In this document: one piece after another, positions 1,374 through 32,884 of the stretch
Layout of the letters: every line of letters starts with the position of its first letter
How positions within the stretch are numbered: position 1 is the stretch's first letter
Source of the DNA: an uncultured virus (IMG/VR IMGVR_UViG_3300025723_000019)
Taxonomy: Duplodnaviria; Heunggongvirae; Uroviricota; Caudoviricetes
DNA length: 64,000 nt
IMG/VR virus record: IMGVR_UViG_3300025723_000019
Location: 1 to 64,000 of that record
Strand: one strand, 5' to 3'
Notes under the pieces: model-generated
Database searches by the model: none
The model's input: only the letters and a program-made list of their open reading frames with translations
What the model was told of the DNA's origin: nothing
Made by a program: the position numbers and the translations under genes

Positions 1374-1380
1374 GCCAGTT

Positions 1381-1429
1381 GCAGGTTCTCAGTCTCAGTT
1401 GCACGATGGGACTGAGAACCTGCTATACT
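1381..1429 (+). promoter_or_regulatory. inverted repeat overlapping extended -10 promoter
   Basis: GCAGGTTCTCAGTC...GACTGAGAACCTGC hairpin followed by TGcTATACT. Confidence 0.5.
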
Positions 1430-1472
1430 GTCCTCTAGCAACACACAACCTACCAACAGAAACGAGAATCGT

Positions 1473-14927: not shown

Positions 14928-15146
14928 TCAAGCGTCCTTGCGCCACGCTCGCATATTCTTGTGGTTCAAGGTGGCGTAGACGACGCAGCCGGGCAGGAAG
15001 CCCCATTGCCGAGTGGTGATGGCGTAAGTCACCCAGACGGCGTTGTAGCCCTGATAGACGAGCCAGCCCCACCAGAACTTTCTACCAACGAGATAGGTGC
15101 AAGTCAGGCCGAGTGCGTCTAAGCACCACGACCACCACTGGGTCAT
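14928..15146 (-). CDS. small membrane protein (PnuC/SemiSWEET-like repeat)
   Basis: three hydrophobic segments, GRKFWWGWLV, QWGF. Confidence 0.55.
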   Translation of the reverse strand: MTQWWSWCLDALGLTCTYLVGRKFWWGWLVYQGYNAVWVTYAITTRQWGFLPGCVVYATLNHKNMRAWRKDA

Positions 15147-15622
15147 TACCTATTCGGTAGGTCTGAGTTGCCGTATATTGGAAGTTGAGCCGTAGCCTCA
15201 TCTGCCTTTTGACTTGCTTCCAAAGCGGCATCGCTGGCAGCGTTGGCGGCTTGGCGTTCAGGTGAAACTCCGAGTTCTCGCCCTTGGATGGCAGTGTTGA
15301 TGAGCGACATCGCTTCTTGGTGTGCGCCTGCTGCCTTTATGTGAGCGTTCTTTGCATCGCCTTCTGCAAGAGACTGTCCGGTGATGTTCCTCGCTACTGC
15401 GAGGTGGGCATCCCTAGCCTTGGCGTGGGTGTTGTAAGCCTCGTGCAGGTTGCCAGCGTTTTTCAGCCAACCGTTAGCGTCGGTTGCCAAACTCACTGCG
15501 TTTGCCGAACCGGCTTGATATTGGTTCCCCCGGAAAGGATGACCCTGCGAATCTCCCTTAACTATTTCAGTAGCCACATTCCACGTCGGGGCGAGGTTTT
15601 GGATTGAGAAGGGATTTGTCAA
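15146..15622 (-). CDS. leader-family protein with His/Ala helical cargo
   Basis: NPF..IVKGDSQGHPFRGNQY leader. Confidence 0.75.
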   Translation of the reverse strand: MTNPFSIQNLAPTWNVATEIVKGDSQGHPFRGNQYQAGSANAVSLATDANGWLKNAGNLHEAYNTHAKARDAHLAVARNITGQSLAEGDAKNAHIKAAGAHQEAMSLINTAIQGRELGVSPERQAANAASDAALEASQKADEATAQLPIYGNSDLPNR

Positions 15623-15624
15623 TT

Positions 15625-16602
15625 TTAGAATCCGCCTGCTTCGTCAACAGCAGCGTAATGACTTTCCGCAGCGGCTTGGCTAATGTCGCCTTTAAGGTCG
15701 TTCATTTCGTCGGGCGAGACGGTTCCACCACTTGCCACCCTGTCGGCAAGAGCCGTTGCTTTTTCGGCAACACCACGGTTAGCGTCAACGGCACCTTGAA
15801 CGTAAACTGGCCTGCCGAAATACTCACTGGGGTCGCCTTGGTAAGCCTCGTCGTTGTCTTCGTGGGTGCCAGCAATTTTATTGTGCAGGTCTGCTACGGC
15901 TCGCAAGTGTTCTTCGGTTGGTTGGATTTCACCAGCGTGGTCTTCCGACCACTCGGCTGCTTTGCTGGCTTCGTGATTGTCGCCACTCCAACTTTCCAAG
16001 GCGTGTTCTTTGGCTATGTCGGCAGCAGCCTTGGCGTAATCATCCTTTTTCCCACCCCCGGTGTATTGGTTTCCCAGAAATGGGTGGCCCGGTTGTGCGC
16101 CCGAACCCGGCCCGCCCTTAGAAACGGGGTAGTTCGATGCTGATTTCAGTAGAGCAGCCGTATGAAAATTGTCGCCCTTAGCAACCGGCTTTCCACCAAC
16201 AGTCCAAGTCGTTCCTCCAACGTTGACGGAACTTGCAGGTGTTTGGTTTGGAGAACTTGGCGTTTCTTCTTCAGGCCCTGCGGTGACACCTAAACGTCCA
16301 TTGCTAAGTTCATTCGCAGCCTTGGATGCAGCGATAGCGTCGGCTTCGTTGCCCTTACCGTTTGCAACGTCTTGCCAAGCCCTTGCAGCAGCGTAATGCT
16401 TTTCAGCAATGGAGTAGTTTTCATTCCCGCCCTTATCGGCAGCAAAGTCACCGGTTTGCGTGTGGTCACGAGCAAAATCTGATGCTTCGCCACTCGTGTA
16501 CTGATTCCCGCGAAAAGGGTGTCCTGCTTCATCACCCTTGGACACAGGGTAGTTGCTAACAGATTTCAGCAATTCTTCGGAATGAAAAGGATTGGTAGAC
16601 AC
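15625..16602 (-). CDS. leader-family protein with two leader copies
   Basis: YPVSKGDEAGHPFRGNQY and internal YPVSKGGPGSGAQPGHPFLGNQY. Confidence 0.8.
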   Translation of the reverse strand: MSTNPFHSEELLKSVSNYPVSKGDEAGHPFRGNQYTSGEASDFARDHTQTGDFAADKGGNENYSIAEKHYAAARAWQDVANGKGNEADAIAASKAANELSNGRLGVTAGPEEETPSSPNQTPASSVNVGGTTWTVGGKPVAKGDNFHTAALLKSASNYPVSKGGPGSGAQPGHPFLGNQYTGGGKKDDYAKAAADIAKEHALESWSGDNHEASKAAEWSEDHAGEIQPTEEHLRAVADLHNKIAGTHEDNDEAYQGDPSEYFGRPVYVQGAVDANRGVAEKATALADRVASGGTVSPDEMNDLKGDISQAAAESHYAAVDEAGGF

Positions 16603-16638
16603 AGGGGAACCTCCTGCGGAGATGCTACTACGGGTTGC

Positions 16639-17844
16639 TTAATTTGCCTCTCGTAGCAGTGCTGTTAACGGCAGTCCGAGACGGTGCAGGGCTTCGTCTG
16701 GCACGAGGGTGTCTGATGCCCACGATTGGTAAATGCTCTCCGGGACAGAAAATCCGTAGTCGCCAATCTTGAACTTCGATTTGGATTCCTTTGGGTTGGT
16801 GGAATCCTTGCCTGCACGAAGTTCGGCAACATCTTCTTGGTCGAAGCCGGAACCTTCCAAACTGTCCAACTTCGCCAGCGATTTCACTAGCAGGTCGTTG
16901 TCGTAGGTTGCCTTGTCGGATATTCTGTTGTCAGCCACGACGATTTTGGTTGCTGCAACTTCATTTACGTCCACCCACACCACGGCGATTTCCTTCCAAC
17001 CGAGTGCTGATGCTGCGGCTGCCGTGTGGTTGCCCTTCAGGATTTGGTTGGTGCGCCGGTTCACCACGATGGGCCGGTACTGGCCGAGGACGCGCAAACT
17101 TTCGCTGATGGCCCCGATGTCCCCTTCTCGTGGGTTGCCGGGGAAGCGACGGAGTTCGGACAGTGGCACGAGTTCGGTTTCCACCATCGTGACCTTCTGC
17201 TCATCTTCGACGGCAGAATTCTTCTCTTTCACCACTCGGACTTTTGGAACCTCTGGCAGGTCAAGTCGGTTTTTAAGTTCCCGGTTGATGGATGCTTTCT
17301 TGTCGCCCACCTCATCTTTCACGCTGGCGAGCCAAAGGTCGTGGAGCGTGGGGTCAAGTTGCCCGTAGAAATCACCAAGTTGGATTTTGACTGGTGGGTT
17401 CAGGTTGTCTGTCGGGTCTTCGTCTAGGAGCGTTGGTGAAACACCCCCACCTTCGGAGTTGTGCAGGCCGTCAAGTTCATCCAAATCTGCCAACTCAAAG
17501 CCCGTTCCTTCAAGGTCAGGCAGTGATTTCAGCATATCTAGCAACAAACTATTGTCGTAAGAAGCGATGTCGCTGGTGCGATTGTCGGTGATGAGGATGC
17601 GAAGTGCGTCATCTTCGCTGCCGTCGAAGCGTGTAATGGCGATGGTTTTCCACCCTAACGACTTGGCTGCTTTCCAAGTGTGCGTTCCGGCGATGATGGT
17701 GTCATTCCAAACCACGATTGGTGAATACTGGCCGTTGACCTCCAGTGATTCTGCGATGGCTGCCACATCTCCGAGGCGAGGATTGGCCGGATGAACGCTG
17801 ATGCTGTCAATAGCCACATTTTCGGAACTGACGTTGATGGTCAT
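16639..17844 (-). CDS. protein with two tandem ParB/Sulfiredoxin-like domains
   Basis: HPANPRLGD..GQYSPIVV..IAGTHTWKAA and FPGNPREGD..GQYRPIVV..LKGNHTAAAA; both followed by DNR. Confidence 0.85.
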   Translation of the reverse strand: MTINVSSENVAIDSISVHPANPRLGDVAAIAESLEVNGQYSPIVVWNDTIIAGTHTWKAAKSLGWKTIAITRFDGSEDDALRILITDNRTSDIASYDNSLLLDMLKSLPDLEGTGFELADLDELDGLHNSEGGGVSPTLLDEDPTDNLNPPVKIQLGDFYGQLDPTLHDLWLASVKDEVGDKKASINRELKNRLDLPEVPKVRVVKEKNSAVEDEQKVTMVETELVPLSELRRFPGNPREGDIGAISESLRVLGQYRPIVVNRRTNQILKGNHTAAAASALGWKEIAVVWVDVNEVAATKIVVADNRISDKATYDNDLLVKSLAKLDSLEGSGFDQEDVAELRAGKDSTNPKESKSKFKIGDYGFSVPESIYQSWASDTLVPDEALHRLGLPLTALLREAN

Positions 17845-17891
17845 AGCGTAAGCCTACAAGATTTCACTAAGCCAAGGATAGGATGGGATTT

Positions 17892-18518
17892 ATGGCGAAC
17901 CCGTTCCTCACTTCCGAACTTTTGAAGTGTGCGTCTCGCTACCCAGTGGTGAAGGGCGACCACGAAGGACACCCATTTCACGGCAATCAATGGGTTGAGG
18001 GTTACGGTGGCGTGCTTGACCAAGAAAATGTTGCACGCTTTGGCGCATCGCTCAACCATTTTTACACAAATGGCGGGTCAATCACTGATGCCACACCTAG
18101 CGAAATAGCGCAAGCAACGCAAGAAATCAAAGCCTTTTCGGTTGCTCACGATTATCACGACGGTGCTGGAATGATGCTTGAAGCACTTCAGGTGGGGGGC
18201 GACCACGTTTACATCGCCAGAGATGGTGATGGGAAGCCAGTAGGCGCACTTAGCGCCACTGACGCACAAAAGATTTCTTATTTCCATTTCATTGGCACAA
18301 CAGGTGAAACCCGTGGGGCTGCAACCGCTTTAGCGCACACGGCATTTCAAGTTGCCGCCGAGAAAGGGAACAGCGTTGAACTTGATGCTACTGGCGAAGG
18401 CGCTGACTTCTGGGGTGCGCTTGGGGCGCACGTTGCCGACAACGAACTGACTTACTCGTGGAGTCCTGACGAGGTGAAGAATGTTGTCAAACTTCTAGGC
18501 GAGGCTGCCCGTGCTTGA
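17892..18518 (+). CDS. leader-family protein with GNAT-like domain
   Basis: YPVVKGDHEGHPFHGNQW leader; GKPVGALS..RGAATAL..ADFWGALG. Confidence 0.75.
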   Translation: MANPFLTSELLKCASRYPVVKGDHEGHPFHGNQWVEGYGGVLDQENVARFGASLNHFYTNGGSITDATPSEIAQATQEIKAFSVAHDYHDGAGMMLEALQVGGDHVYIARDGDGKPVGALSATDAQKISYFHFIGTTGETRGAATALAHTAFQVAAEKGNSVELDATGEGADFWGALGAHVADNELTYSWSPDEVKNVVKLLGEAARA

Positions 18519-20103
18519 TTTCACTACAAACGCCTTACTTCAAGGGCTTGCTCGCTACCCAGTGGTGAAAGGCGACGTTCAGGGCCACGTTTTCCACGGG
18601 AATCAGTGGACTGGTGGTCAGGGTGGAGAGATGCCTGCCAACATCGCTGCGTTCCAAAGGAACCTCAAAGAGTTCTACGACGCTGGTGGAAAAATTGAGC
18701 GCGTAGACAACGAAAACAAGATAAGTGACCTTTACCACACATTCCTAGAAATGCGAGAAACGCCAGAATACAAGGCAATGGACGCTCGCCATCAGCAAGG
18801 CATCCGCTTTCTAGGGGAAGCAGCAATGTATGCCCACGCCAACTTCAGGGCTGCAAATAGTGAAATCAACCCCAACCAAATCGTTTCATCGCACTTGTTT
18901 GTTGCTCGCAACAAAAACAACGAAATAGTGGCTGCTGTAAATGTTGCCATTCACTCTCCCGACATACGCTTGGGCGACGGTAGCGGCCCGATACTTCCAT
19001 CAGCCAGCATTGGCTACCTCGGCTCAACCGGGAAGATGCCCGGTGCTGCAACGGCACTAATGGAGCAGGCGATTCAGATGGCAGCCGATAAGGGGTTGAC
19101 GATGACCTACCAAACGACAGCCGACAGCCATCCCTATCACGAAATGTTAGGCATTAAAAGGCTTAATGACCGTGGGTTAGAGGGATTTTCAGCAGAAAGC
19201 GCAGCCAAAATCGCAGCCCTTCCAAATCCCAAGCCAACCATTATCAAGGCTGAGGATTTCACTGTTGAGGCATTACTGCGACCCCTGAGCAACTACCCCG
19301 TTTCCAAAGTTGGCAACAACCCGGCGAGCAACAAGTCTTCGCTGCTGTCAGAAAAGGCAAACTCACTTCGGGTTTCCACCGATGGCGACCTGTCCGGCTC
19401 GGCTGCTGCCCACCGGAAATTGGCTGCTGAACACTCGGCTCTGGCATCACAACTGACTGGTGATGCTGCTCAGAAGCATCGTGACGCTGCAACTGCCCAC
19501 ACCGAGGCTGCTGACGAGATTGACGCTATCCGACCCGTTGAGGGTGGCTCTATTGCTTCCAATGCTCTGACCGGGGATAAGGCTCACGCTTTTGCTGGAA
19601 TGGCTGCACGGGCTTCCAATGCTGCGCTCCAAGCAACCATCAACCAAAAGGCAATGCCTGTGACGAAGATGGTGGAAACCGACTACTACGGCCCTCACGC
19701 TAAAGAGATGCTGGCGAAGTTCGACACCCCACCTGTAGATTTCCGGGCGATGGGTGGATTCCACCTTGGATACGGAATTAGACATCAAGATATGGCCGAC
19801 CAACTCCAATCGTTGGCGTACAAACTGCGTGGTGAAAACGGCAATGTTGACAACGCTGCCACTCGTGCGTGGATGCAGGCTTCCGTTGCACACCGAGATG
19901 CAATGCAAGCGCACTACACGGCTGGTCGAATCAACGATGCTGCTGCGTTTGCCAACACGAAGGTGGAAGGTGCAACCCCATCCACTCACCATTCGATGGG
20001 GAACTGTCGCTACGCCTCTACTGCTGCTGCTGATGCTTCCCAAAAGGCAGACGAAGCAACCGAGGCAGCCCAGAACATCGCTGCTGAGCCACAAGACGAT
20101 TGA
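18511..20103 (+). CDS. leader-family multidomain protein (GNAT-like plus two helical modules)
   Basis: YPVVKGDVQGHVFHGNQW; YLGSTGKMPGAATALM; internal DFTVEALL..YPVSK. Confidence 0.8.
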   Translation: MLDFTTNALLQGLARYPVVKGDVQGHVFHGNQWTGGQGGEMPANIAAFQRNLKEFYDAGGKIERVDNENKISDLYHTFLEMRETPEYKAMDARHQQGIRFLGEAAMYAHANFRAANSEINPNQIVSSHLFVARNKNNEIVAAVNVAIHSPDIRLGDGSGPILPSASIGYLGSTGKMPGAATALMEQAIQMAADKGLTMTYQTTADSHPYHEMLGIKRLNDRGLEGFSAESAAKIAALPNPKPTIIKAEDFTVEALLRPLSNYPVSKVGNNPASNKSSLLSEKANSLRVSTDGDLSGSAAAHRKLAAEHSALASQLTGDAAQKHRDAATAHTEAADEIDAIRPVEGGSIASNALTGDKAHAFAGMAARASNAALQATINQKAMPVTKMVETDYYGPHAKEMLAKFDTPPVDFRAMGGFHLGYGIRHQDMADQLQSLAYKLRGENGNVDNAATRAWMQASVAHRDAMQAHYTAGRINDAAAFANTKVEGATPSTHHSMGNCRYASTAAADASQKADEATEAAQNIAAEPQDD

Positions 20104-20141
20104 CCCTAGACACATTTCACTGACTGAGGTAGAGTGAAGAA

Positions 20142-20288
20142 ATGACTGAACTGCGTTGTCGAAATTGCGGGGCAAGCATTGAGCGCATTGTCCCCGGTTC
20201 CACCACTCCAAACCATTTCCGGCACAAGAACAAGGCCGTTGCCTGCGACTTGGATGATGTCGGCTCCCTTACTGCTGAACCGAAGTAA
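20142..20288 (+). CDS. small Zn-finger-like protein
   Basis: MTELRCRNCG..HFRH..C; GAGGT RBS. Confidence 0.5.
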   Translation: MTELRCRNCGASIERIVPGSTTPNHFRHKNKAVACDLDDVGSLTAEPK

Positions 20289-20320
20289 GGCATTTACAAA
20301 ACTAAAGTAATCTTGGCAGT

Positions 20321-21007
20321 ATGCGTGGCGACGAATTCACAACTGCATCACTGCTGAAATCTCTTTCTGCCTACCCGGTTTCCAAGGGCGATTTCGACGG
20401 CCACCCGTTTCGTGGGAACCAATACCGGACTGGTGAAGGTGGGTTTCCAAACGCCAAAGTGACTAGCCCCAAGGAATTCCTGTCGGCTTTCAGCAGTGCG
20501 TTCAAGGGAAATCCCTACTCTGCGTTCGTGAATCACTACACCCTCGCCCAAATTAAGGCCGAGAAGATGACCCCGCTTCTGTCCCCGGATGGTCGAACCG
20601 GCTGCCTCATCCACGACCACGGTGATGGTCGAATCGAAGCCACGGCTTTGTTCTCCAAGGGCGTGAGTGGCAGTGGTGCTGCAATGCTGCACGATGCCAT
20701 TAAGAACCACGGGGTGAACTACGTTGAGTGTTTCGGTGAGCATCTCCCCCAAGTCTATGGTAAACTGGGGTTTAGAGATACCGAGGTGATGCCGTTCAAC
20801 AAGGAGTACGCTCCCAGCGACTGGGACTACGAAAAGTTTGGCACCCCCGACTACCACATAATGGAGTTGAAGAACGTGACCAAGAGTGCTGATGAAAAGG
20901 CAATTCGTGACGCTGCCAAGGCAAAGATGAAGCCCGACCAGTTGAAGTACGAAGAAGCCCTGTGGCGCGCTGCTCAGGCCGTTCTTGGTAGCGACGAGAA
21001 CAAGTAG
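20321..21007 (+). CDS. leader-family protein with GNAT-like domain
   Basis: YPVSKGDFDGHPFRGNQY; LFSKGVSGSGAAML..ECF..LPQVYGKLGF. Confidence 0.75.
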   Translation: MRGDEFTTASLLKSLSAYPVSKGDFDGHPFRGNQYRTGEGGFPNAKVTSPKEFLSAFSSAFKGNPYSAFVNHYTLAQIKAEKMTPLLSPDGRTGCLIHDHGDGRIEATALFSKGVSGSGAAMLHDAIKNHGVNYVECFGEHLPQVYGKLGFRDTEVMPFNKEYAPSDWDYEKFGTPDYHIMELKNVTKSADEKAIRDAAKAKMKPDQLKYEEALWRAAQAVLGSDENK

Positions 21008-21039
21008 GAATTCCAGCACCCTGCGATACTCTGGTATCT

Positions 21040-21294
21040 ATGGATGCGTCTGATTTCACTAGCGATACCCTGATTCGTTGGGTCGCCAAGGCCGACCGCT
21101 GGAGTGGTCGCGACCTCGCAAGCGAGCGATTCCAAAAGGCTGCTCAGGCTCACATTCAGGCTGGCCAACTCTGGCAACGTGCTGCACACGCCTACGCCAG
21201 TGGTGATGAGGCTAACGCCAAGGTTCTGTACAAGCAGGCCCACGACGCTTCGGCCAAGGCAAAGAACCTGTCTGCTGAAGCAGAAATGATTTAA
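21040..21294 (+). CDS. partial-leader helical protein
   Basis: DFTSDTLI.WVAK leader remnant; Ala/His-rich helix. Confidence 0.6.
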   Translation: MDASDFTSDTLIRWVAKADRWSGRDLASERFQKAAQAHIQAGQLWQRAAHAYASGDEANAKVLYKQAHDASAKAKNLSAEAEMI

Positions 21295-24242
21295 CTAGTC
21301 TGTTGCAACCCACGCTCTGCGAGGCTGACAAGCAAATCACCAACGATTGAGCCTTCCTCGTCTTCATCTTCGTCGGTGCCGTCAATAGCCCTGTCCACGA
21401 TGGAGCGTTTGTGCTGAATCAGGGCTGCGATGTCTTCGTCAATCGTGTCTGCCGTGAGCATTAGCCAAGCGGTCACGCTGTCCTTCTGGCCGATACGGTG
21501 GCAACGGTCTGCGCCCTGCTCCATATCGCTCGGTGTCCACCCCTGTTCGATGAACAGCACGTCGCTCGCTGCCGTGAGGGTCAGTCCCACTCCGGCTGCT
21601 TTGATGTTGCAAGCGATGACTTTTTGTTCGTCGGAGTTTTGGAAAAGGTCAACGGCTTCTTGACGCTTCTCTGACGAGATTCCACCTTGAATCTTGACCC
21701 CATTGGCGAAGTTGACGGCAATGTCATCCACCACAGTGCGATGCCATCCGAACACCACGAGTTTCTTGTCGTTGGCGAGAAAGTCTTCTACCCACTGCTT
21801 GGCGACCTTCATCTTGGCCTTCGCTGCCAGTTGCTTCAGGGTGCTGATTGCGACCAGTTGCTCTGCTGCTCTGGCTCGGAGTGCCTTCATCCACGCCTCT
21901 TTGCGGGCTTCCTCTGAACTTGCCCCGGATTCCAAGGCAAACTGCATTGCAAGTTGTGAAAGGTATTTCACAATATCGGCTTCTGCCTTTTTGTATTCCT
22001 TCATCACGGCTGCGTCGCCTTCCACCACCACGCTGCTCCAACGCTTTGGTGGCAGTTCGGTCAGCACGTCAGCCTTCCTGCGCCGGACATAACACATTGA
22101 GCGCAGTTTGCGATTGAGGGATGCGAGGCTTTTCGCACTGGCTCTGCCGTAGACGTTGCGGAATGACGATGCACCACCAAAGTCATCCAGTCGGTGAACG
22201 ATGCGAAGTTGGGTCATCAGTTCCAACGGCTGGTTGACGATAGGCGTACCGGACAGGCAAACACGAACGCCGTTTTCCACCACTTTGTCGGACAACTTGA
22301 TGGCTGCCTTGGAACGCTGGGCTGCGCCGTTCTTGACGTAGTGGCTCTCGTCTAGCACGATGCCCTTCACTGAGGTGAAACGCTCTACCCAGTGGGTCAG
22401 AATGTCGTAGTTGCAGATTATAATGATGGGATGAGCATTAGATACAGCACTGATGAACTCGCCAACGCCGTCGCCAGACGAGAACGAGGCGACAACATCA
22501 ACGAAATCGTCAAGGACTTCCCCGGATACGTCCACAATGTCGCTGCTTTCCAAAAGCGACTGGACAACTTCGCCAACCCCAAGCCGAGAAATAGGCGATT
22601 TGAGGGTCGCACCCTGAACCTGCCGGACGATATTGCCCAACTCGGATACATCGCTGGAATCGTTGATGGCGAGGGAAGCATTTCCAAATCCGGCAAGGCT
22701 TGGACTATTGTCGTTTACAACACTGACAAGGGTTTGATGGACTGGCTTTCCAGTTTTGGTGGTCGCAGTTATGTTCGCACGTTCGTCAAGGAGCCGCGCT
22801 TCCCTACGAAGCGAACTCAATACGGTTGGGTCGTCGCTCGTCAACTTGATGTCTTGTATCTTTCTGAAAAGTTGGAACCTTACTTGCTCATCAAGAAAGA
22901 CCGAGCGAGGCAGGCTCAGGCGGAGATTAGGCTTCGTGGTTCCTTCAAGGATGACGGTTCCGGCCTCTCCTAACCAGTTGTGGGCTTCACGCTCCCAGTT
23001 GAATTTCAGGCTTGCCGGGCAGATAATGACTGCTGGAAACGATTGGGTGGCTTGCAAAATTCCAAGGCCCTGACAGGTCTTGCCGAGGCCCATTTCATCA
23101 CCAACGATGACCCCACCTTCACCGGTGTTCTTCGTGCGCTCCCACACGCCTTCGCTGGTGTGTTCCCATCCCATTGCTCGCAGTGCATAGGCAACCCCGG
23201 CACGTTGGAACGGAAACAGTTGCAGTGTTTCACTGCCGAATCCCTTGATGGTGATTTGGGCATCTTTGGCAGCCGAGGCTTCAATGATTTCTTGTACGAT
23301 GCTGGCTTCGTCAACGAGGCGCACTGCCTCAGGGGACATTGCAGCGTTAAACTCCTTGGAGAATTTCAGCACTTCGTCTACGGATTCGATGGGGACAACC
23401 CAAGTCCGTAATGCTGGTGACCACGACGAACCCGGCATCTGGCGCACTGCGCTGAGCAGTTGAGCGTCGTAGGTGAACGAGATAGCGAAGTCCCGGCCTT
23501 GAACCGAAATCTTTGGCCCGGTGGTGATTTCTACCTCAGGCAGTTCCAACACGCCCTTGGACAGTTCAATGTTGTAGTCGCTCGCCAGTTTGCGAACGAT
23601 GCTGACCGTCTCCTTGGGGACAACCCACGTCTTGTCTACGCCATTCCACCTACGACCCGGAATTGAGCGCACAGCATCTACGAGCGATGGGTTGTAGTCA
23701 AACGCCATCACGATTTCGCCGTTGCGGAATACTGCCTTACCGATGTAGTCGGGGTGTTCTGGCTTGGGCGCACTTTCCAGCAACGCCTTGGCTCGCTCCG
23801 TGACCGGGACGTTGTTCTGCTTCGCCCAGTCCAGCACCGAGCCGTACTTGCTGACCGAAACCTGCCAACCTCGCAGTTCACGGTTCCACATAGCGTTGAG
23901 CGCACCCTTGGGATACGCCGAATCACCATACGGCAGGAAGACGAGAATCTTGCCAGCCTTTACGTCAACGGCACGGACAAACTTCTGGCCCTTGACCTTT
24001 GACGGCTCAGGAATAGCGTCGTAGTCAATTCCACCACTAGCAAGTTGGCCTCGGTACTTGGAAAGCATCTCCCACGCTTCACGCTGGGAACCTTCGCTCC
24101 ACGCTTCAGGGGAGATTGCTGCGAGTGCCTTACCGAACCGACTGTCGGGGCCATTGAACCCCTTGGCATCTTGCTGAACCGCACCATCGCAGTTGGCAGC
24201 GAGATACTGGACAGCCTTGGCTAGCAACTCACTTGTCGGCAT
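21291..24242 (-). CDS. SNF2/HARP-like DNA helicase with ~165-aa insertion
   Basis: GDEMGLGKT, ICPASLK.NW.RE, DESH, LSGTP, GVGLTLTAA, QGADRCHRIGQ; repeated N-terminal HARP-like W..W.V modules. Confidence 0.9.
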   Translation of the reverse strand: MPTSELLAKAVQYLAANCDGAVQQDAKGFNGPDSRFGKALAAISPEAWSEGSQREAWEMLSKYRGQLASGGIDYDAIPEPSKVKGQKFVRAVDVKAGKILVFLPYGDSAYPKGALNAMWNRELRGWQVSVSKYGSVLDWAKQNNVPVTERAKALLESAPKPEHPDYIGKAVFRNGEIVMAFDYNPSLVDAVRSIPGRRWNGVDKTWVVPKETVSIVRKLASDYNIELSKGVLELPEVEITTGPKISVQGRDFAISFTYDAQLLSAVRQMPGSSWSPALRTWVVPIESVDEVLKFSKEFNAAMSPEAVRLVDEASIVQEIIEASAAKDAQITIKGFGSETLQLFPFQRAGVAYALRAMGWEHTSEGVWERTKNTGEGGVIVGDEMGLGKTCQGLGILQATQSFPAVIICPASLKFNWEREAHNWLGEAGTVILEGTTKPNLRLSLPRSVFLDEQVRFQLFRKIQDIKLTSDDPTVLSSLRREARLLDERANITATTKTGKPVHQTLVSVVNDNSPSLAGFGNASLAINDSSDVSELGNIVRQVQGATLKSPISRLGVGEVVQSLLESSDIVDVSGEVLDDFVDVVASFSSGDGVGEFISAVSNAHPIIIICNYDILTHWVERFTSVKGIVLDESHYVKNGAAQRSKAAIKLSDKVVENGVRVCLSGTPIVNQPLELMTQLRIVHRLDDFGGASSFRNVYGRASAKSLASLNRKLRSMCYVRRRKADVLTELPPKRWSSVVVEGDAAVMKEYKKAEADIVKYLSQLAMQFALESGASSEEARKEAWMKALRARAAEQLVAISTLKQLAAKAKMKVAKQWVEDFLANDKKLVVFGWHRTVVDDIAVNFANGVKIQGGISSEKRQEAVDLFQNSDEQKVIACNIKAAGVGLTLTAASDVLFIEQGWTPSDMEQGADRCHRIGQKDSVTAWLMLTADTIDEDIAALIQHKRSIVDRAIDGTDEDEDEEGSIVGDLLVSLAERGLQQTS
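22431..22973 (+). mobile_element. LAGLIDADG homing endonuclease gene nested antisense in helicase
   Basis: LGYIAGIVDGEGSI, VYNTD..L, FGG, LEPYLLIKKDRA; TATAAT at 22419-22424 six nt before ATG. Confidence 0.85.
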
Positions 24243-24280
24243 AACCCCACTTTAGCATAGGGTTGTGACAACTACAAGTA

Positions 24281-24544
24281 TTACTTAGTTTCCCGGTTGT
24301 GGTGCTTGTACAGGGCTTGGTCAGTCGTGCCTGCCCATTCAGCAATCTTGCGCCACGTCACGCCGTGTTCGCGGAGACGGGTGACGGTCTGGCGACGCTC
24401 TACGCCCAGTGAAATAACTGCCTTCTCGTGTTCACGCATCTGCTTGCAGACATCCTTGATGTGGCTCAGAAGTGCAGCGACCTCTGCTGAAAAGCCTTCA
24501 TCCATCGGCTGGCGTTCGGGGAGTGGGGTCACGGGTTCAGTCAT
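24281..24544 (-). CDS. HTH DNA-binding protein
   Basis: AGGAG RBS; GVTWRKIAEWAGTTDQALYK. Confidence 0.75.
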   Translation of the reverse strand: MTEPVTPLPERQPMDEGFSAEVAALLSHIKDVCKQMREHEKAVISLGVERRQTVTRLREHGVTWRKIAEWAGTTDQALYKHHNRETK

Positions 24545-24770
24545 TGTTCTCCTAGGGGGTAAAGGGATTTCACTGCTGGGGATTGGATGGATGTCGCTTC
24601 TTGGCTTCTTCTATGTGTTGCTGGTGAAACCAAGGGCCGGACAAAAAGAAATGGCGTGGGCCACAGACGGGGCAGTAGCCGTTCTCGTCGGTAGGGTCAT
24701 CAACTTCTTCCACATTTGGAAACCCTACTACACGAATACCGGTTCAGTCACAGGGGTAGTGGATTTCACC

Positions 24771-27098: not shown

Positions 27099-28777
27099 TA
27101 TGAAGACACGTCTTCCATAATCGTCAAGTTGTAGTAACCAGCGTACTGGTCGGTGATGGCCGAAATCGGGCCTTGATAATAGGCACTTGACCAACTCCCC
27201 CCATTTGGAGCCAAGTAAATACCGGAGCCGTAAATTCTGGGCAAATTTCCACCAGCATTAAACCCACCGTTTCCAATTTGAGGTCGGTAGTTGTAGGTGT
27301 TGCCATCATTTCCAATCGCCAGTGAAATCCGAAGGGGATTTGTGTTCCCACTTTCCAAGCCAGCAATTGTGCAGTCGGTGTAGCAGAGGCCCAAGAACAC
27401 GTTGACTGGGCTGTCGTTGACGATGGTGATGTTTCTGCGCTTTGGATTTGCCGGACAAAGTGTCGTTTCCCACGGGTAGGCATACGCACTTTTCGGTGCT
27501 GAAATGTAATTGTTGGAGCCATCAACGATGGCCGGGAAGCGGTATTGAGGGTTGCTGGGGTCGTAGTACAAATCCCCCTGAGTGCCTAAAACGTAGAGGT
27601 GCTGAATGTATGTTTGGTTGAGGCCGGTGGCGTAAGGGGTCTGCGACATTCCCAAACTAACGTGTTGCAAATATCCTGCAAAGATGTTGAAAAGATTGTT
27701 CGTCGGGTTGTTCGTCGGCGCAGTGAAAAGCGACAGGTTTGTTGATTGGTGACCGGCTTCGCTCGCCAACGTGCCAACATATGAATAAATCTGAACTCCG
27801 TTAGCCCAGACCGTCAATTCGGCTTGCCCACTTGGGAAAATCACATTTACGTTGACCGTGACCATATAGGTGTCGTTCTGCGACACCGAATCGTTGAGCG
27901 AAGAAAAGAAATTTGACGGGTCAAGAATTTGCGAAAAAACCTGCACCAAGTAATTCTGAGTGTTGGTGTTTTGGAAAATTACTTCGTACTCGCCGCCCTT
28001 GTTGAGGATTCGACCAAATGAAAGCGAACGGTCTGCGACGGACACGTCCACACTGGAACTTGACACGTTGACAACGTTGGTAAGAGTGAGGTAAGTGGTC
28101 GAACCGGATACGGAGACATTAGAAATGCCAGTTCCGGGTGGGATTCCAGCACCAGTAATTTGAACCCAGTTCGTCGGTTGAGTAGGGGAGTAGTTGTTGA
28201 CGTAGTTGTACAACTTCCCAACTCCAAAACCCGAACCGGTGTTTCCACCACCAAGGTCGGAAGTTGAAACGGCAGCAGTAGTTACGCCCCCAGTGGTGCT
28301 GAACGTCGCATTTTTTCCCTGACAGAAGTACGGCGTTGGCGATGCTGTGACTTGAATCCAAGCGTTGATGGCGAGGTTGCTAGCAGAATAACGACTGAGG
28401 GTCGTTGTGTTGCCGACAACGATTCCACCACCAGCGTTGTAGACCGTCGAACCAGCAGTTACAAAAACCGAGTGGTCGTTTGGCCTGCCCGGAAGAATAC
28501 TGGGTTGGTAGGTTACTGCGTATGTTGAATTGTAAGTTCCGTTGAGAAGCGAACCGTAAGTGCTGGAATTGACTGCCGTTGTCGAAATGTCACCGAGCGA
28601 CCAGTGAGCGATAAGGTCGTTGGTGGAATTGTTGAACCCACCATCCATTGCGTTCGTTAATGCGTTTGGCGACCAGCCCGTGCCGGTTGCCGTAGAGCCA
28701 GTCGGTGCTGAAGTTCCCGTAGACAGGATGGCGTTTTGGTAGTAGTCGTGCGTGAGGCCTGTAAGGGTGACGCTCAT
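27098..28777 (-). CDS. tail-associated protein with LamG-like domain
   Basis: LIAHWSLGD, INAWIQ, ILNKG, TVWANG pattern; C-terminal RRNITIVNDS module. Confidence 0.6.
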   Translation of the reverse strand: MSVTLTGLTHDYYQNAILSTGTSAPTGSTATGTGWSPNALTNAMDGGFNNSTNDLIAHWSLGDISTTAVNSSTYGSLLNGTYNSTYAVTYQPSILPGRPNDHSVFVTAGSTVYNAGGGIVVGNTTTLSRYSASNLAINAWIQVTASPTPYFCQGKNATFSTTGGVTTAAVSTSDLGGGNTGSGFGVGKLYNYVNNYSPTQPTNWVQITGAGIPPGTGISNVSVSGSTTYLTLTNVVNVSSSSVDVSVADRSLSFGRILNKGGEYEVIFQNTNTQNYLVQVFSQILDPSNFFSSLNDSVSQNDTYMVTVNVNVIFPSGQAELTVWANGVQIYSYVGTLASEAGHQSTNLSLFTAPTNNPTNNLFNIFAGYLQHVSLGMSQTPYATGLNQTYIQHLYVLGTQGDLYYDPSNPQYRFPAIVDGSNNYISAPKSAYAYPWETTLCPANPKRRNITIVNDSPVNVFLGLCYTDCTIAGLESGNTNPLRISLAIGNDGNTYNYRPQIGNGGFNAGGNLPRIYGSGIYLAPNGGSWSSAYYQGPISAITDQYAGYYNLTIMEDVSS

Positions 28778-29052
28778 AGTTCCCAACCCACAAGAAGTCC
28801 ATTGCCGGGAGCAGTGGTCGAAACTGCCGTGAACCAACCCGTCGCGGCAGTCACGAAGATTCCACCATTTGGATTAAGGCGCACCCCTTGGCGTAAAGTT
28901 GCAGGAGCAGTCGAACCGCTTGCACCGTAACCCAAGTAAATGACGTTTCCCGTGGTGCTGACGTTTTGCAGAACCAATTGCTTTCGACTGGAGTTTGCAG
29001 GAACGACAAGAACTGATTGGTAGGTCGGGAACAATACTGAAATCGCAGCCAT
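28774..29052 (-). CDS. small virion-associated protein
   Basis: GGAGG RBS; NSSRKQLVLQN..IYLG..GVRLNPNGG module. Confidence 0.65.
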   Translation of the reverse strand: MAAISVLFPTYQSVLVVPANSSRKQLVLQNVSTTGNVIYLGYGASGSTAPATLRQGVRLNPNGGIFVTAATGWFTAVSTTAPGNGLLVGWEL

Positions 29053-29825
29053 TAGACCTCCACGAACGTCAACATCGCAGTTGAACCACTGAGCGTGATG
29101 GCCGAGATAGTTCCACCATAGATGTAGGTGTTCCACGACTGTCCGGGATACAATTGTATTCCGCTTCCTGTGGCTGCCGTAGAACCAAGGGCTAACCAAA
29201 TTGTGTTGGAGGGGTCAATGTTGGTGGCCGTGAATTGCTTCCTATTGACGTTGGTAGATAGCACCGTTACGCCAGAACCAGCGTTGTACGAGACAATGGT
29301 GGAACCTGCCGGAGTTGCTGCCGAAGATGTCGTTGCCGGTGGCCCTGCTGGGCCGGTTGGCCCGATTGGGCCACCAGATGCCCCAGTTGCCCCTTGTGGG
29401 CCTTGCTGAAGCGTGAAGTTGAAGGCGTAAGAACCAGATGTACCAGTGATGCCTACGCTTGGAGTTCCTGTCGGGCCGGTGCTGAAAACTGTTCCAATTG
29501 AAAACGTCGCTGCTGGGCCGACAGAACCCTGAGGGCCGGTGGAACCAGTTGCCCCCTGAGGCCCAGTAGCCCCAGTCGCACCCTGCGCTCCGACAACTGC
29601 TGTGACCCACGTTCCAATCGTTAGCGACAAGCCGTTGGTGATGTTCGACGTACTGCCAACCGTGATGGTGCCAGTTCCAATGCTGGAAATTGTCGTGTTG
29701 ACCCCAGAAGCAATGACCGACATCGAAATAGCAAGACCTGATGTGCTGCTGACCGGCACGACAAGTCCTGTCGGGTTGCCTGTCGTCACGGTTGCTGCTA
29801 GTGAAAAGTAAGCGAGTTGGGTCAT
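29052..29825 (-). CDS. collagen-like tail fibre protein
   Basis: G-X-Y repeats [10 protein letters not shown]. Confidence 0.75.
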
Positions 29826-29832
29826 TCTGGGC

Positions 29833-31077
29833 CTAGATGTTTGCGCTCAGGTATTCAAACAATATTTGCGAACCGTTGATAAACGCGACACCACCAGCAG
29901 TAGACAATTTCAGTGCCGTGTTGCCGACAACGTAAGTGACGGAAAAGGTGTTTCCAGCAGTCAACTTCTGCGTGTAGGAATCTGATTGCGTTGTCGTGTA
30001 GCCAGAGTTGGTAACGAGGGTAGAAGCGAGGTTTGGGCCATTACTCCCAATAACTTTGGCGTTGAAGTTGGTATTGACCTGTCCAGTTGCAACCCAATAG
30101 GTGGAAATTCTGTAGATGCCAGTTGTATTCACGGTGAAGACCGTTCCAGTCCCATCAACAGAAATGGTTCCCGTGTAGTTGTATGCAGTGGTGGAACCAG
30201 TGAGCCAAGAAAGCGTCGTGCCATTCAAACCGGCAGTTTGCGTTGCGCCAGCAGTTGCGCCACTTACTGAAAACACTGCACCCATCCACGTCGGGCTAGT
30301 TCCGCTTGCTCCTGTCGGGCCAGTCGCTCCCGTTGGGCCGGTTGCTCCAGTTGCTCCGGTTGAGCCTGTGGCTCCTTGCTGAAGTACAAAACTCAGCGCA
30401 AACGTGTTGCCGGTCTGGGAGACGGAGACTGACGGACTTCCCGTTGGGCCAGTACCGGTGACGGTTCCAATTGTTGCAGTCGGAGCCGGGCCTGTTGGCC
30501 CCTGAGTTCCGTTTCCAGCAGCAGCCGTGTTGAGCCAGAGCATCAACGTGTTGCCCGGTGGCAGCGTTCCAGTAAAGATGTCGGTCTGCCCGGTCACGGC
30601 GAGGCTGACAATAACTCGCTTATCCAAAATCTCGTTGGTGGTGATGCTTGTCGTGGGCGTGGCGTTCGTGCCTTCGACGTAGATTTCAGCGAGCAGCACT
30701 GCGTTGGCAGGCAGGTTCGGCTTAATCGGGGCTGCCGAATCGTTCGTGAACTGCCAATTCGCCGTGGTTGAGGCGTTTCCAGCAAGATAGTTGTAGACAA
30801 CTGCCGAGCCACTCCAAGTGGCGTACACGATGTCTCGTCGGTCACCGGTACTGGCTGCTGAAACCACTACCGTGCCGGAGTTGGCCGAGTAGGAAGAACC
30901 TGCGATGGCGATTACACCACTCGCAATCCCGACGGTCATCCCTGAACTTGGGGTCACGGCGCACCCGGAGATGACACCGGTAAGTGCTGAACCTGCCGTA
31001 ATCGCTGCGAAATCAGTCGAATCTACAACCGACTGCGCTGGGTAGTTCGTCGGATTCTCGTAGGTCGGGAAGTTCAT
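29833..31077 (-). CDS. collagen-like tail fibre protein, possible C1q/TNF-like C-terminus
   Basis: GGGAGG RBS; GATGPTG repeats; [12 protein letters not shown]. Confidence 0.75.
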
Positions 31078-31084
31078 AGCCTCC

Positions 31085-31444
31085 CTATGATACTTCGGAA
31101 ATTGTTATTTCTAAAGCATCCTTGCCGAACTTCGGCACCAGAAACGTCAATTTCAGTACCACGTTTGCGTTGTCATCCAGCAAAACTCCGGCATCAACGA
31201 GGCCGTCAACGGCTGCCTTCACTGCTGGAAAACAGTTGCCAACATCCTGCCGGTACCGAGCGTTCAAAACGTAGGGCTGGGCCACCACTTCTATTTGTTC
31301 CAAATGTGGAACCATAAATTCTTGGGCCAGTTCGCAAAAGGCCTGTCGCCACTCTTTCACCAACTTGGCTCGCTGCATATGGTGGAGCGTTCGTTCCTTG
31401 TTGAGCGTCCAAGGGCGTTCAGGGTATTCCAGCGTCCAACTCAT
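31085..31444 (-). CDS. rusA: RusA-like Holliday junction resolvase
   Basis: QDVGN..KAAVDGLVDAGVLLDDN motif. Confidence 0.8.
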   Translation of the reverse strand: MSWTLEYPERPWTLNKERTLHHMQRAKLVKEWRQAFCELAQEFMVPHLEQIEVVAQPYVLNARYRQDVGNCFPAVKAAVDGLVDAGVLLDDNANVVLKLTFLVPKFGKDALEITISEVS

Positions 31445-31938
31445 AATGCAATGACCTTAAACGGTTTGCGAACGTAGGTGGTGTGGTACATCGCTGCCGA
31501 CAGGGACAACTTTATGCGGCTCTGTGGTGATAGGTCATCCATTGTTTCCAAAACGTGCAGGGCTGCGAGAGCAGCAAGACCGCCGGAACCGATGGCGTTG
31601 TAGCGTTCCGAGGATTTCACTAAAGAGAAGTCCGAGCCGATTTCCCAGACCCCTTCCAATCCAACGACGAGTACGCCCCAGTCTGGTGATATTGGGAAGC
31701 CCGACTTCTCGCTTTGAGTGATGAGGTAGTCCCGGAGTTGCCGAGGTTCGCCCAGACCGCTTTGGTGAACGAGTTCCATAATGCGAAACGAGCCGGACAC
31801 TCCGACGAGCGTGTGGTGTTCTACTGACTTCCAAACCTTCTGGTTAGTCGTAGTGATTGCCGAGCCTTCGTCAAAGGCTCCTGAATCGCCGCCGATGACT
31901 GCGTTTTCACCATCACTCCAACCGCAGATTACCGTCAT
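31441..31938 (-). CDS. HslV/proteasome-beta-like Ntn peptidase
   Basis: N-terminal Thr (MTVICG), GGDSG, KVW, GVSGS, AIGSGG. Confidence 0.75.
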   Translation of the reverse strand: MTVICGWSDGENAVIGGDSGAFDEGSAITTTNQKVWKSVEHHTLVGVSGSFRIMELVHQSGLGEPRQLRDYLITQSEKSGFPISPDWGVLVVGLEGVWEIGSDFSLVKSSERYNAIGSGGLAALAALHVLETMDDLSPQSRIKLSLSAAMYHTTYVRKPFKVIAL

Positions 31939-32057
31939 AGGACAAGCCTACTTCCGGTTGCGATGGAAGACCGCGAGGCCGAGGATGGTGTTGATGATGG
32001 CACAAATCGTAGTAATGGTCATACCTACTACGGTGTCCGTCGTTTTCGACGGCGCAC

Positions 32058-32249
32058 TCAGTTCTGTTCGGCTGTGTGCTTTCCACCTGCCACAAACGCT
32101 TGCCCGTAACTTCCCCACTTCGGGGTTGTCCAGCCACAAGTGCAGAACGGCTGGAACAACTCACGGTTCATCATCTGGCTCTTGGTGGCTTCGATGGTGA
32201 TTGCGTGATTTCCAACCGGGGTTGGGGTGGCCTTCTTGCGCCCAGCCAT
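32058..32249 (-). CDS. small Zn-binding protein
   Basis: H..CTCGW..H. Confidence 0.45.
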   Translation of the reverse strand: MAGRKKATPTPVGNHAITIEATKSQMMNRELFQPFCTCGWTTPKWGSYGQAFVAGGKHTAEQN

Positions 32250-32260
32250 TACTTCGATAC

Positions 32261-32884
32261 TCAGTCGCCGTAGTAGGACCAGTCGGGCTCTTGATGACCG
32301 TTCGCAATGTCGGCATCAAGGTCCGAGCCAGTGCCGTTGGCGGCGAAAAGATTAGCGACAGCATCCTTGTAGGTTCCTACCTGCTTGCCGGTTCCCAACT
32401 CGTAGATAGGGTCACTCAAGGAGTGTGGCGTTCCATCTGCTTCTTCTTTGCCAGTGGTGGAGAAACTCAGACCGGGAAAATCCCTTCTGTCCGTACTCAA
32501 GTCATCGGTGTACGTCAACACCTTTTGGGGCGACGCACGCAGCGTGGTGTCAATGTGGTTGCCATCGTCCGAGCCTTGAGCGTGAAAACTTATCTCTCCG
32601 TTGTGTTCAACTTCGATTTCACCGTTGCTAATCCAGAAGGGAAGGCCATCTTCTGCTCCCCCTCGCCTCACGAGGAAGGTGGAACCGTTTCTCCCCGGCT
32701 CTACGTGAAAGTCGGGAAGATTGGGGAAATAGGGGTTGAGTGGCTTAGGGGCTGTACCGCCCGTCTCTTCCTTTGTCCACTGGTTTCCGTGAAATTCGTG
32801 GCCGGGCAGGTCGCCCTTCTTGATAGCGGTAAACGCCTTACCAATGGGGTCAAGGTTGTCGGGATGGAATGGGTTGGTGTTCAT
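32261..32884 (-). CDS. leader-family protein with unknown acidic cargo
   Basis: NPFHP..IKKGDLPGHEFHGNQW leader; TAGGAT -10 six nt before ATG. Confidence 0.75.
   Translation of the reverse strand: MNTNPFHPDNLDPIGKAFTAIKKGDLPGHEFHGNQWTKEETGGTAPKPLNPYFPNLPDFHVEPGRNGSTFLVRRGGAEDGLPFWISNGEIEVEHNGEISFHAQGSDDGNHIDTTLRASPQKVLTYTDDLSTDRRDFPGLSFSTTGKEEADGTPHSLSDPIYELGTGKQVGTYKDAVANLFAANGTGSDLDADIANGHQEPDWSYYGD

What the first reader, a model, noticed from the sequence alone, without database searches (positions are those of the whole stretch)
15146..32884. Family of proteins sharing one N-terminal leader fused to interchangeable cargo domains: candidate virion-packaged effector system
Seen: six ORFs on both strands (15146-15622, 15625-16602, 17892-18518, 18511-20103, 20321-21007, 32261-32884) begin with a ~35-aa leader, (NP/D/E)F-x4-L(L)..YPV[SV]K-GD-xx-GH[PVE]F[RH]GNQ[YW]. 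The YPV part is degenerate in 15146 and 32261. ORF 21040-21294 has a partial copy. The leader recurs internally at domain junctions (15625 ORF: NFHTAALL..YPVSKGGPGSGAQPGHPFLGNQY; 18511 ORF: DFTVEALL..YPVSK). Hydrophobic-x-Lys sites (PVAK, IIK, PVTK, NVTK) fall at other junctions. The cargos are unrelated: GNAT-like, His/Ala helical, acidic. Established: T4 internal proteins use a short capsid-targeting leader removed by the prohead protease. Inference: this is a portable targeting/cleavage tag (cut after V-x-K) that loads a variable set of anti-host or anti-defence proteins, some as polyproteins, into the head for injection.
Basis: partly seen in the sequence, partly recalled or inferred. Interest (0 to 1): 0.88.

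Follow-up and report, generated by a model that had tools for sequence, protein, structure and literature searches.

The report
Portable tag on phage head cargo
This uncultured phage puts the same 13-residue peptide at the start of 26 protein modules, right after the likely cut site of its head-maturation protease; many unrelated phages use the same peptide behind their own, different cut sites, so it probably marks proteins carried inside the head and delivered to the host, though no cutting, packaging or delivery has been measured.

Summary
The window is half of a complete 121-kb phage genome, probably infecting actinobacteria. GH-x-F-x-GN occurs 26 times in 16 ORFs. 19 copies lie outside the window, between the portal/XkdF-type protease and the scaffold/capsid genes. 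The 'leader' has three parts: a lineage-specific F-x4-LL stretch, a hydrophobic-x-Lys site (25 of 26 copies), and a tag, GD-xx-GH-x-F-x-GNQ[W/Y], that lies after the site and would stay on the mature protein. The tag's profile hits 2,376 protein clusters. The residue before it switches with each phage's head protease: Lys with XkdF (27 of 37 records versus 2 of 43), Asp or R-x-L/A with DUF2213, Leu, Asn or Ala with Mu-type. The same site precedes most of those protease domains. Tags head nearly every module of polyproteins and also follow portal, protease, MuF and DarA domains. Cargos are GNATs, kinases, ADP-ribosyltransferases, TopIB, Nudix and 2H. Best reading: protease-released head cargo whose retained tag acts after the cut (retention or co-ejection). 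This differs from T4's removed targeting peptide. The scan noted hydrophobic-x-Lys codes, and one different retained tag, on other DNA; this tag is in no note or paper I found. Nothing is tested experimentally.

The parts
15146..15622 (-). Tagged ORF, 158 aa: leader, IVK site, tag (15518-15556), Ala/His-rich cargo of unknown family
   Evidence: no Pfam, PHROG or NCBIfam hit; homologue in a relative's tagged ORF
15625..16602 (-). Two-module ORF, 325 aa: leader-YPVSK-tag (16498-16536) with cargo 1; internal leader-YPVSK-GGPGSG-type tag (16063-16116) with acidic cargo 2
   Evidence: module 1 weakly homologous to the head-block ORF at G000:C1 97061
17883..18518 (+). Tagged ORF (start probably 17892): leader-YPVVK-tag (17955-17993), GNAT-like cargo
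18511..20103 (+). 530-aa polyprotein: leader-YPVVK-tag (18571-18609), GNAT-like module homologous to 17883; internal leader-YPVSK without tag (19255-19308); His/Ala helical modules
   Evidence: the first module occurs inside multi-tag polyproteins of relatives, e.g. L105 ORF aa 913-1141, 59% identical
20321..21007 (+). Tagged ORF, 228 aa: leader-YPVSK-tag (20387-20425), GNAT-fold cargo; leader and tag region unstructured in the model
   Evidence: homologues carry other short tags or MuF
21040..21294 (+). 84-aa ORF with a leader-like start and a VAK site but no tag; membership uncertain
32261..32884 (-). Tagged ORF, 207 aa: NPF leader, IKK site, tag (32777-32815), acidic cargo of unknown family. 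(The larger part of the system lies beyond the window; see Noticed in passing and the Full report section.)
   Evidence: leader shared with the head-block ORF at G000:C1 97061

Best explanation
Each unit is a cassette: [optional leader] - [prohead-protease site] - [retained tag GD-xx-GH-x-F-x-GNQ(W/Y)] - [Gly-rich linker] - [one cargo domain]. Step 1 (inferred): precursors enter the prohead through the short leader or through fusion to a head protein. Step 2 (inferred, with strong comparative support): the XkdF-type protease, which also digests the scaffold, cuts after hydrophobic-x-Lys and frees each module with the tag as its new N-terminus. Step 3 (inferred, weakest): the tag acts on the mature piece. 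It keeps the piece in the head while scaffold fragments leave, and brings it out with the genome. The most economical partner is one shared by all these phages, i.e. the packaged DNA or the exit channel, rather than a family-specific capsid protein. Step 4 (inferred from domain families): GNATs, kinases, ADP-ribosyltransferases, Nudix, 2H and TopIB modules modify the host or blunt defence at entry. Shown here: the cassette, its repetition, its head-gene context and its covariation with protease family.
For: (a) 19 of 26 copies lie between portal/protease and scaffold/capsid; 25 of 26 follow [VILF]-x-K. (b) The site is enriched in the protease (14 of 28 Lys, p 2e-4) and scaffold (8 of 13, p 3e-3), not in the portal (2 of 20) or non-structural proteins (60 of 261). 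(c) In 80 hand-picked IMG/VR records, XkdF is found in 27 of 37 Lys-type and 2 of 43 other records; Mu-like_Pro in 0 of 37 and 9 of 43; DUF2213 in 0 of 37 and 13 of 43 (Fisher p 8e-11 and 6e-8). At 40% identity, 48 of these proteases form 19 lineages, 18 of them with a single site class. (d) By eye, the same site directly precedes the protease domain in most records: Lys in XkdF phages, I-Q-N in the one XkdF-like phage with an Asn tag, Asp in DUF2213 phages, Phe in an S78 phage. (e) In the 150 best profile hits (546 tags), tags within a protein share their preceding residue 0.89 of the time versus 0.65 shuffled (maximum 0.68 in 2000); median spacing is 211 aa, about one domain. (f) 31 of 137 scanned tag ORFs contain a head domain: 6 portals of three families, tag always C-terminal; 13 proteases; 12 MuF. 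Tags also sit in DarA-family polyproteins, whose P1 prototype is a head protein (PMC9024508 passages). (g) Cultured XkdF phages with related capsids have Lys-site-rich scaffolds but no tag in their head regions, so the tag is not needed for cutting. (h) Homologues of the 20321 GNAT carry this tag, other short tags, or MuF in the same slot. 757 modules fall into 405 cargo clusters; 26 clusters mix Lys and non-Lys sites. (i) One module is 43% identical to phage E3 gp205, annotated 'structural protein'.
Against: No cleavage, packaging, ejection or binding has been observed, and no binding partner was tested. The six window genes lie far from the head block, and three are on the strand opposite to the late genes; promoter-like sites there are at chance level (4 found, 2.9 expected). 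Hydrophobic-x-Lys is a weak pattern: tail proteins are also mildly enriched (62 of 197, p 0.007), the capsid protein is not (5 of 13), and non-tag sites in cargo ORFs are borderline. Site density in protease frames favoured the matching class for K, N and F, only narrowly for R-x-L/A, and not for the D, hxL and xA classes. Three Lys-type records have S78 (HK97-type) proteases, not counting a marginal second hit in one XkdF record, and many records had no protease call; most are fragments. 8 of the 13 protease fusions came from loci fetched around proteases. Tags were found by their sequence, so decayed tags are under-counted. MuF co-occurs in 47 of 80 records, so the tag does not simply replace MuF. 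The tag is near neutral in charge, which does not favour plain DNA binding.
Confidence: 0.58

Rival explanations
1. The tag is itself the loading signal. It binds the inner shell or scaffold during prohead assembly, as encapsulin targeting peptides do, and stays on the cargo only because cassettes are shuffled whole. Several tags per polyprotein add avidity.
For: It is a short, unstructured peptide (pLDDT below 50) followed by a Gly-rich linker, as described for encapsulin targeting peptides (PMC10402063 passages). Many stand-alone tagged genes have leaders of only 5-15 residues with little in common. It occupies the slot of MuF, a known packaging domain, and this genome has no PF04233 match.
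Against: It is kept on cargo already fused to portal or protease and on nearly every internal module. This phage's capsid protein is detectable in only 24 of 80 tag-bearing records (many are fragments), and the portals belong to three families, so the receptor would have to be very conserved in structure.
Confidence: 0.27
2. The tag only helps processing or stability: an extended prime-side recognition motif for the protease, or a protective N-terminus for the released piece.
For: It lies at a fixed distance from the site: 5 residues from Lys to GH in 20 of 26 copies, 10 in the GGPGSG variant.
Against: The protease's and scaffold's own sites lack it, related cultured phages lack it altogether in their head regions, and it is unchanged behind four protease families with different specificities.
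Confidence: 0.08
3. The proteins are not virion cargo. The motif is a docking peptide for a host or phage factor in the cytoplasm, and the head-gene context reflects shared late expression.
For: 7 of 26 copies lie away from the head block, three genes on the opposite strand; no virion data exist.
Against: Fusion to portal, protease, MuF and DarA, and covariation of the preceding site with the head protease.
Confidence: 0.07

Closest known systems
Phage T4 internal proteins IPI-III and Alt with the capsid targeting sequence (CTS), cut by gp21 (PMC9026906, passages read)
   Same: Short N-terminal leader, then a prohead-protease site also used on the scaffold; variable cargo; ADP-ribosyltransferase among the cargos.
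   Different: In T4 the conserved 10-residue CTS is the part removed and the cut is after Glu. Here the conserved peptide follows the site, recurs inside polyproteins, and the protease is XkdF-type with a Lys site.
Phage-type polyvalent proteins (Iyer et al. 2017, PMC5512222, passages read)
   Same: Multi-domain proteins in virion-gene context with ART, kinase, GNAT, Nudix, 2H, InPase, PBECR, zeta-toxin-like kinase and DarA domains.
   Different: Those are proposed to be processed mainly by their own zincin (MPTase) domains. Here each joint carries the phage's prohead-protease site plus a fixed tag. 'GNQ' and 'linker' do not occur in that paper's main text; its FTP supplements were not seen.
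MuF polymorphic toxins / SPP1 gp7 (Jamet et al. 2017, PMC5576092, passages read)
   Same: Variable effector domains encoded next to the portal and presumed to be head-packaged; the same cargo family is fused to MuF elsewhere.
   Different: No PF04233 MuF in this genome; a 13-residue tag stands where a ~110-residue domain stands; many cargos per genome.
Phage P1 Dar system (DarA, Hdf, DarB) (PMC9024508, passages read)
   Same: Head-packaged anti-restriction cargo with a short packaging signal; DarA-family polyproteins in other elements carry this tag behind Asp sites.
   Different: No DarA or DarB domain among this phage's tagged proteins; the DarB signal lies in its first 30 residues and is not a repeated internal tag.
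Encapsulin targeting peptides (PMC10402063, passages read)
   Same: A short retained peptide and a flexible linker on interchangeable cargo for an HK97-fold shell.
   Different: This is a tailed phage; the tag sits behind a protease site; binding to the shell is untested.

Membership tests
T4 CTS / internal-protein system | Short N-terminal leader ending at a prohead-protease site | tested here: met
   At sequence level: six window ORFs and several head-block ORFs
T4 CTS / internal-protein system | The conserved signal is in the removed propeptide | tested here: not met
   Invariant columns lie after the site; the upstream part varies with lineage
T4 CTS / internal-protein system | gp21-type protease cutting after Glu | tested here: not met
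   The head-block protease is PF14550 and the sites end in Lys; PF03420 itself was not searched genome-wide
T4 CTS / internal-protein system | Cargo present in mature heads and ejected | not testable with these tools
   No virion data; uncultured phage
Phage-type polyvalent proteins | Two or more effector domains in one polypeptide, encoded among virion genes | tested here: met
   2070-aa, 791-aa and 539-aa ORFs between protease and scaffold
Phage-type polyvalent proteins | Characteristic domain repertoire (ART, kinase, GNAT, InPase, PBECR, 2H, LPD) | tested here: met
   Kinase, DRAT-like and GNAT here; ART-PolyVal, InPase, PBECR, LPD3 and 2H in tagged relatives
Phage-type polyvalent proteins | Zincin MPTase as processing domain (common, not universal) | tested here: not met
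   No zincin hit in this phage's tagged ORFs; zincin-like hits in 1 of 137 tagged ORFs elsewhere
MuF polymorphic toxins | MuF domain at the N-terminus of the effector | tested here: not met
   0 matches to PF04233 in G000; MuF2-4 profiles not searched
MuF polymorphic toxins | Downstream immunity gene | not tested
   -
P1 Dar system | DarA_N/Hdf and DarB-type methylase-helicase among head cargo | tested here: not met
   None among the tagged ORFs of this phage; present in tagged elements elsewhere
Encapsulin targeting peptides | Peptide binds the inner face of an HK97-fold shell | not testable with these tools
   No complex prediction was available for this window

The most novel reading that the evidence does not exclude
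Tailed phages from several host phyla share a universal, 13-residue 'ejection/retention' tag that is unmasked by whichever prohead protease the phage has. It is one of a small alphabet of interchangeable tags. It decides which released fragments stay in the head and travel with the genome, and it marks thousands of uncharacterised injected effectors while reading out the cleavage specificity of unstudied proteases (XkdF, DUF2213, Mu gpI).
Probability: 0.4. Interest if true: 0.9.

Novelty: new variant of a known kind. Interest (0 to 1): 0.77.

Why it matters
How long-tailed phages choose which proteins stay in the head after maturation and get injected is an open question. A short conserved peptide on the mature side of the cut is a direct handle on it and can be tested with reporter fusions. 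The tag also works as a search key: its profile reaches 2,376 protein clusters, and most tagged ORFs scanned have no known cargo family, so it lists candidate day-zero host-takeover and anti-defence proteins. The residues before the tag give a testable specificity for several prohead protease families, and support reading DUF2213 as a head protease.

Tried and rejected
DNA repeat or recombination site: rejected; synonymous positions vary, and the main repeats found are just the leaders and tags. Folded shared domain: rejected; the tag region has pLDDT below 50, has no PDB relative and no Pfam, PHROG or NCBIfam model. A single-sequence fold of the 18511 protein was uninformative (pLDDT 39), and a region search for its first module among shorter proteins found only a near-copy. 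Search for a cultured phage with the tag: a 26-aa tblastn found nothing, but is too insensitive to show absence. Three tagged ORFs used as queries gave cargo-domain or chance hits only; four cultured head or cargo regions had no tag. MuF replacement as a general rule: rejected (47 of 80 records have MuF). Orthologue test of tag versus flank conservation (0.78 versus about 0.3 over 36 alignments): not used as support, because the database was built from tagged proteins. Promoter scan: chance level. Prokaryotic genomes: 60 stretches on 58 contigs, of which about 23 look like true tags by eye and the rest chance. Literature: ten search slots used; the top rows for motif strings were unrelated papers. 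Subscription journals and the FTP supplements of PMC5512222 were not visible. Binding partner and expression remain open.
Full report
Setting. The window is bases 1-64,000 of a 121,340-base virus record with direct terminal repeats, called 100% complete. A WhiB-like gene points to an actinobacterial host, and tape-measure and major-tail hits to a long-tailed phage. The nearest cultured capsid proteins are those of Arthrobacter and Microbacterium phages, at 47% identity.

Observation. Across the whole genome, GH-x-F-x-GN occurs 26 times in 16 ORFs. The stricter GH.F.GNQ occurs 24 times against 0.01 in 200 shuffles. Nineteen copies lie outside the window, in ten ORFs at G000:C1 82,447-100,869. 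These sit between a Mu-type portal (102,871-104,529; PF06074) plus XkdF-type protease (100,877-102,703; PF14550) and the probable scaffold (75,471-76,274) and capsid genes (73,606-74,685). Codons at invariant residues vary freely, so this is a peptide under selection.

Anatomy. The 'leader' has three parts. (1) An upstream F-x4-LL...YP stretch: a profile of it scores strongly at six places, all in the 15-21 kb cluster; looser versions head other tagged genes here and in relatives. (2) A hydrophobic-x-Lys site before 25 of 26 copies. (3) The tag GD-xx-GH-x-F-x-GNQ(W/Y), then a Gly-rich linker. Hydrophobic-x-Lys is enriched in the protease (14 of 28 Lys) and scaffold (8 of 13), mildly in tail proteins (62 of 197), and not in the portal (2 of 20), capsid (5 of 13) or non-structural proteins (60 of 261). 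Lysines in tagged ORFs that are not linked to a tag are borderline (99 of 456, p = 0.05).

The site follows the protease; the tag does not change. The residues before the tag were uniform within a contig but differed between contigs. I picked 80 longer records by hand: 37 Lys-type and 43 others. XkdF was found in 27 of 37 and 2 of 43 (both weak); Mu-like_Pro in 0 and 9; DUF2213 in 0 and 13; S78 in 4 and 3. Strong DUF2213 hits go with Asp sites, weak ones with R-x-L/A sites; Mu-type goes with Leu, Asn or Ala; S78 with Lys or Phe. By eye, the same site precedes most of the protease domains themselves, including an XkdF-like protease that starts after I-Q-N in a phage whose tag follows I-Q-N. A cruder density count favoured the matching class for K, N and F, narrowly for R-x-L/A, and not for D, hxL or xA. 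The records are not independent; at 40% identity 48 proteases form 19 lineages, 18 with one site class. In a second data set, a 92-sequence tag profile hit 2,376 of 1.84 billion cluster representatives at E <= 0.001. In the best 150 (546 tags), tags within one protein share the preceding residue 0.89 of the time versus 0.65 shuffled, and are spaced a median 211 residues apart.

Link to the head. Of 145 non-redundant tagged ORFs from the fetched loci, I scanned 137 (eight, mostly short, cut-off or chance-looking, were left out). Six contain a portal of three different families, with the tag always C-terminal to it; 13 contain a protease (8 from loci fetched around proteases); 12 contain MuF. 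In bacterial assemblies about 23 of 58 matching contigs look like true tags. These include Mu-like portals in Verrucomicrobiota and DarA-family polyproteins beside DarB-like genes in Betaproteobacteria. DarA and DarB are head proteins in P1 (PMC9024508, passages). One module of the 2070-aa protein is 43% identical to phage E3 gp205, annotated 'structural protein' (the underlying proteomics was not read).

Cargo. The 20321 protein has a GNAT fold. 17883 and the first module of 18511 are homologous and GNAT-like, and that module recurs inside multi-tag polyproteins of relatives, which ties the window cluster to the main array. The head block adds PI3/4-kinase/HipA-like, DRAT-like and pentapeptide modules. 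Residues 955-1145 of the 2070-aa protein match PHROG 7625 and the end of the XopAD model below cut-off; I read this as RelA/SpoT-like from memory. Relatives add TopIB, zeta-type kinase, VIP2 and PolyVal ARTs, Nudix, InPase, 2H/Acb1-like and PBECR. 757 modules form 405 clusters, 303 of them singletons; 26 mix Lys and non-Lys sites. Homologues of the 20321 GNAT carry this tag behind Lys or Leu, other short motifs (HPRD-xx-G-K/R-F-like, GH-x-GRPG-like), or MuF in the same slot.

Mechanism. Cutting after hydrophobic-x-Lys by the prohead protease is the best-supported step, though still inferred. It would leave the tag as the N-terminus of each piece. Three facts point to a role after the cut: the tag is repeated on nearly every internal module; it is kept on cargo already carried in by portal or protease; and related cultured phages with the same protease type and Lys-rich scaffolds lack it in their head regions. 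Its indifference to portal, capsid and protease family suggests a universal partner such as DNA or the exit channel. SPP1 gp7, the studied MuF, binds portal (PMC5576092 passages) and is called DNA-binding in a reference title there. A loading role like that of encapsulin targeting peptides (PMC10402063 passages) remains a serious rival. Against any simple reading: the window genes are far from the head block, three run on the opposite strand, no promoter signal stands out, MuF co-occurs in 47 of 80 records, and tags were ascertained by sequence.

Comparison with what is known. It works like the T4 CTS/internal-protein system (PMC9026906 passages; SPN3US processing, PMC10052503 passages) but fails membership: the conserved part is not the removed part, and the protease differs. 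It fits phage-type polyvalent proteins in architecture and repertoire (PMC5512222 passages; PMC9503650 passages), with a different processing logic. Searches for the motif strings listed only unrelated papers; topic searches found no description of the tag. Subscription journals and that paper's FTP supplements were not visible. Earlier scan notes describe hydrophobic-x-Lys codes with XkdF on other genomes, and one different retained tag. None holds this motif.

Verdict. Real, well beyond chance, and wider than the window. It is a new variant of a known kind: protease-released head cargo carrying a retained tag that is portable across head systems. Interest 0.77.

Noticed in passing
G000:C1 82447-100869 (-), loci L002/L003, beyond the window: Main part of the system: 10 tagged ORFs with 19 tag copies, including a 2070-aa polyprotein with five tags (83815-90027); PI3/4-kinase/HipA-like, DRAT-like, pentapeptide and DUF5872 modules.
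   Followed up: yes
G000:C1 102871-104529, 100877-102703, 75471-76274, 73606-74685 (all -), beyond the window: Head genes flanking the array: Mu-type portal (PF06074), XkdF-type protease (PF14550; domain starts after an I-Q-K site), probable scaffold rich in hydrophobic-x-Lys, and major capsid protein (PHROG 1005).
   Followed up: yes
window 22392-22973 (+) inside 21291-24242 (-): A 193-aa homing-endonuclease-like ORF (PHROG 5046, E 9e-12; the LAGLIDADG look is my reading of the motif) lies antisense within the still-open SNF2 helicase frame, spanning helicase residues 424-617 between conserved helicase motifs.
   Followed up: partly
window 3605-4936 (-): Terminase large subunit with a mini-intein (HINT/intein hits).
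   Followed up: no
G000:C1 98143-98601 (-), L003:12144-12602: Dps/ferritin-like gene inside the tagged array, with an N-terminal VEK site but no tag.
   Followed up: no
P0009-P0033: A small set of other short motifs sits between a protease-type site and the same GNAT cargo in other phages, suggesting a family of interchangeable tags.
   Followed up: partly
L427:5422-6636, L461:5398-6246, L436, L468, L428: Asp-site tags in or beside DarA-family polyproteins (DarA_N, InPase, ddrB-ParB, DarA_C), next to DarB-like methylase-helicases in L427, L436 and L468; two are in cultured strains.
   Followed up: partly
G000:C1 100877-102703: The protease precursor carries a long Ser/Asp run and two Cys-rich stretches ahead of the catalytic domain.
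   Followed up: no
window 342-2210 (+): Amidoligase plus class II glutamine amidotransferase gene pair.
   Followed up: no
window 16639-17844 (-): A double ParB-domain gene sits between the minus- and plus-strand tagged genes.
   Followed up: no
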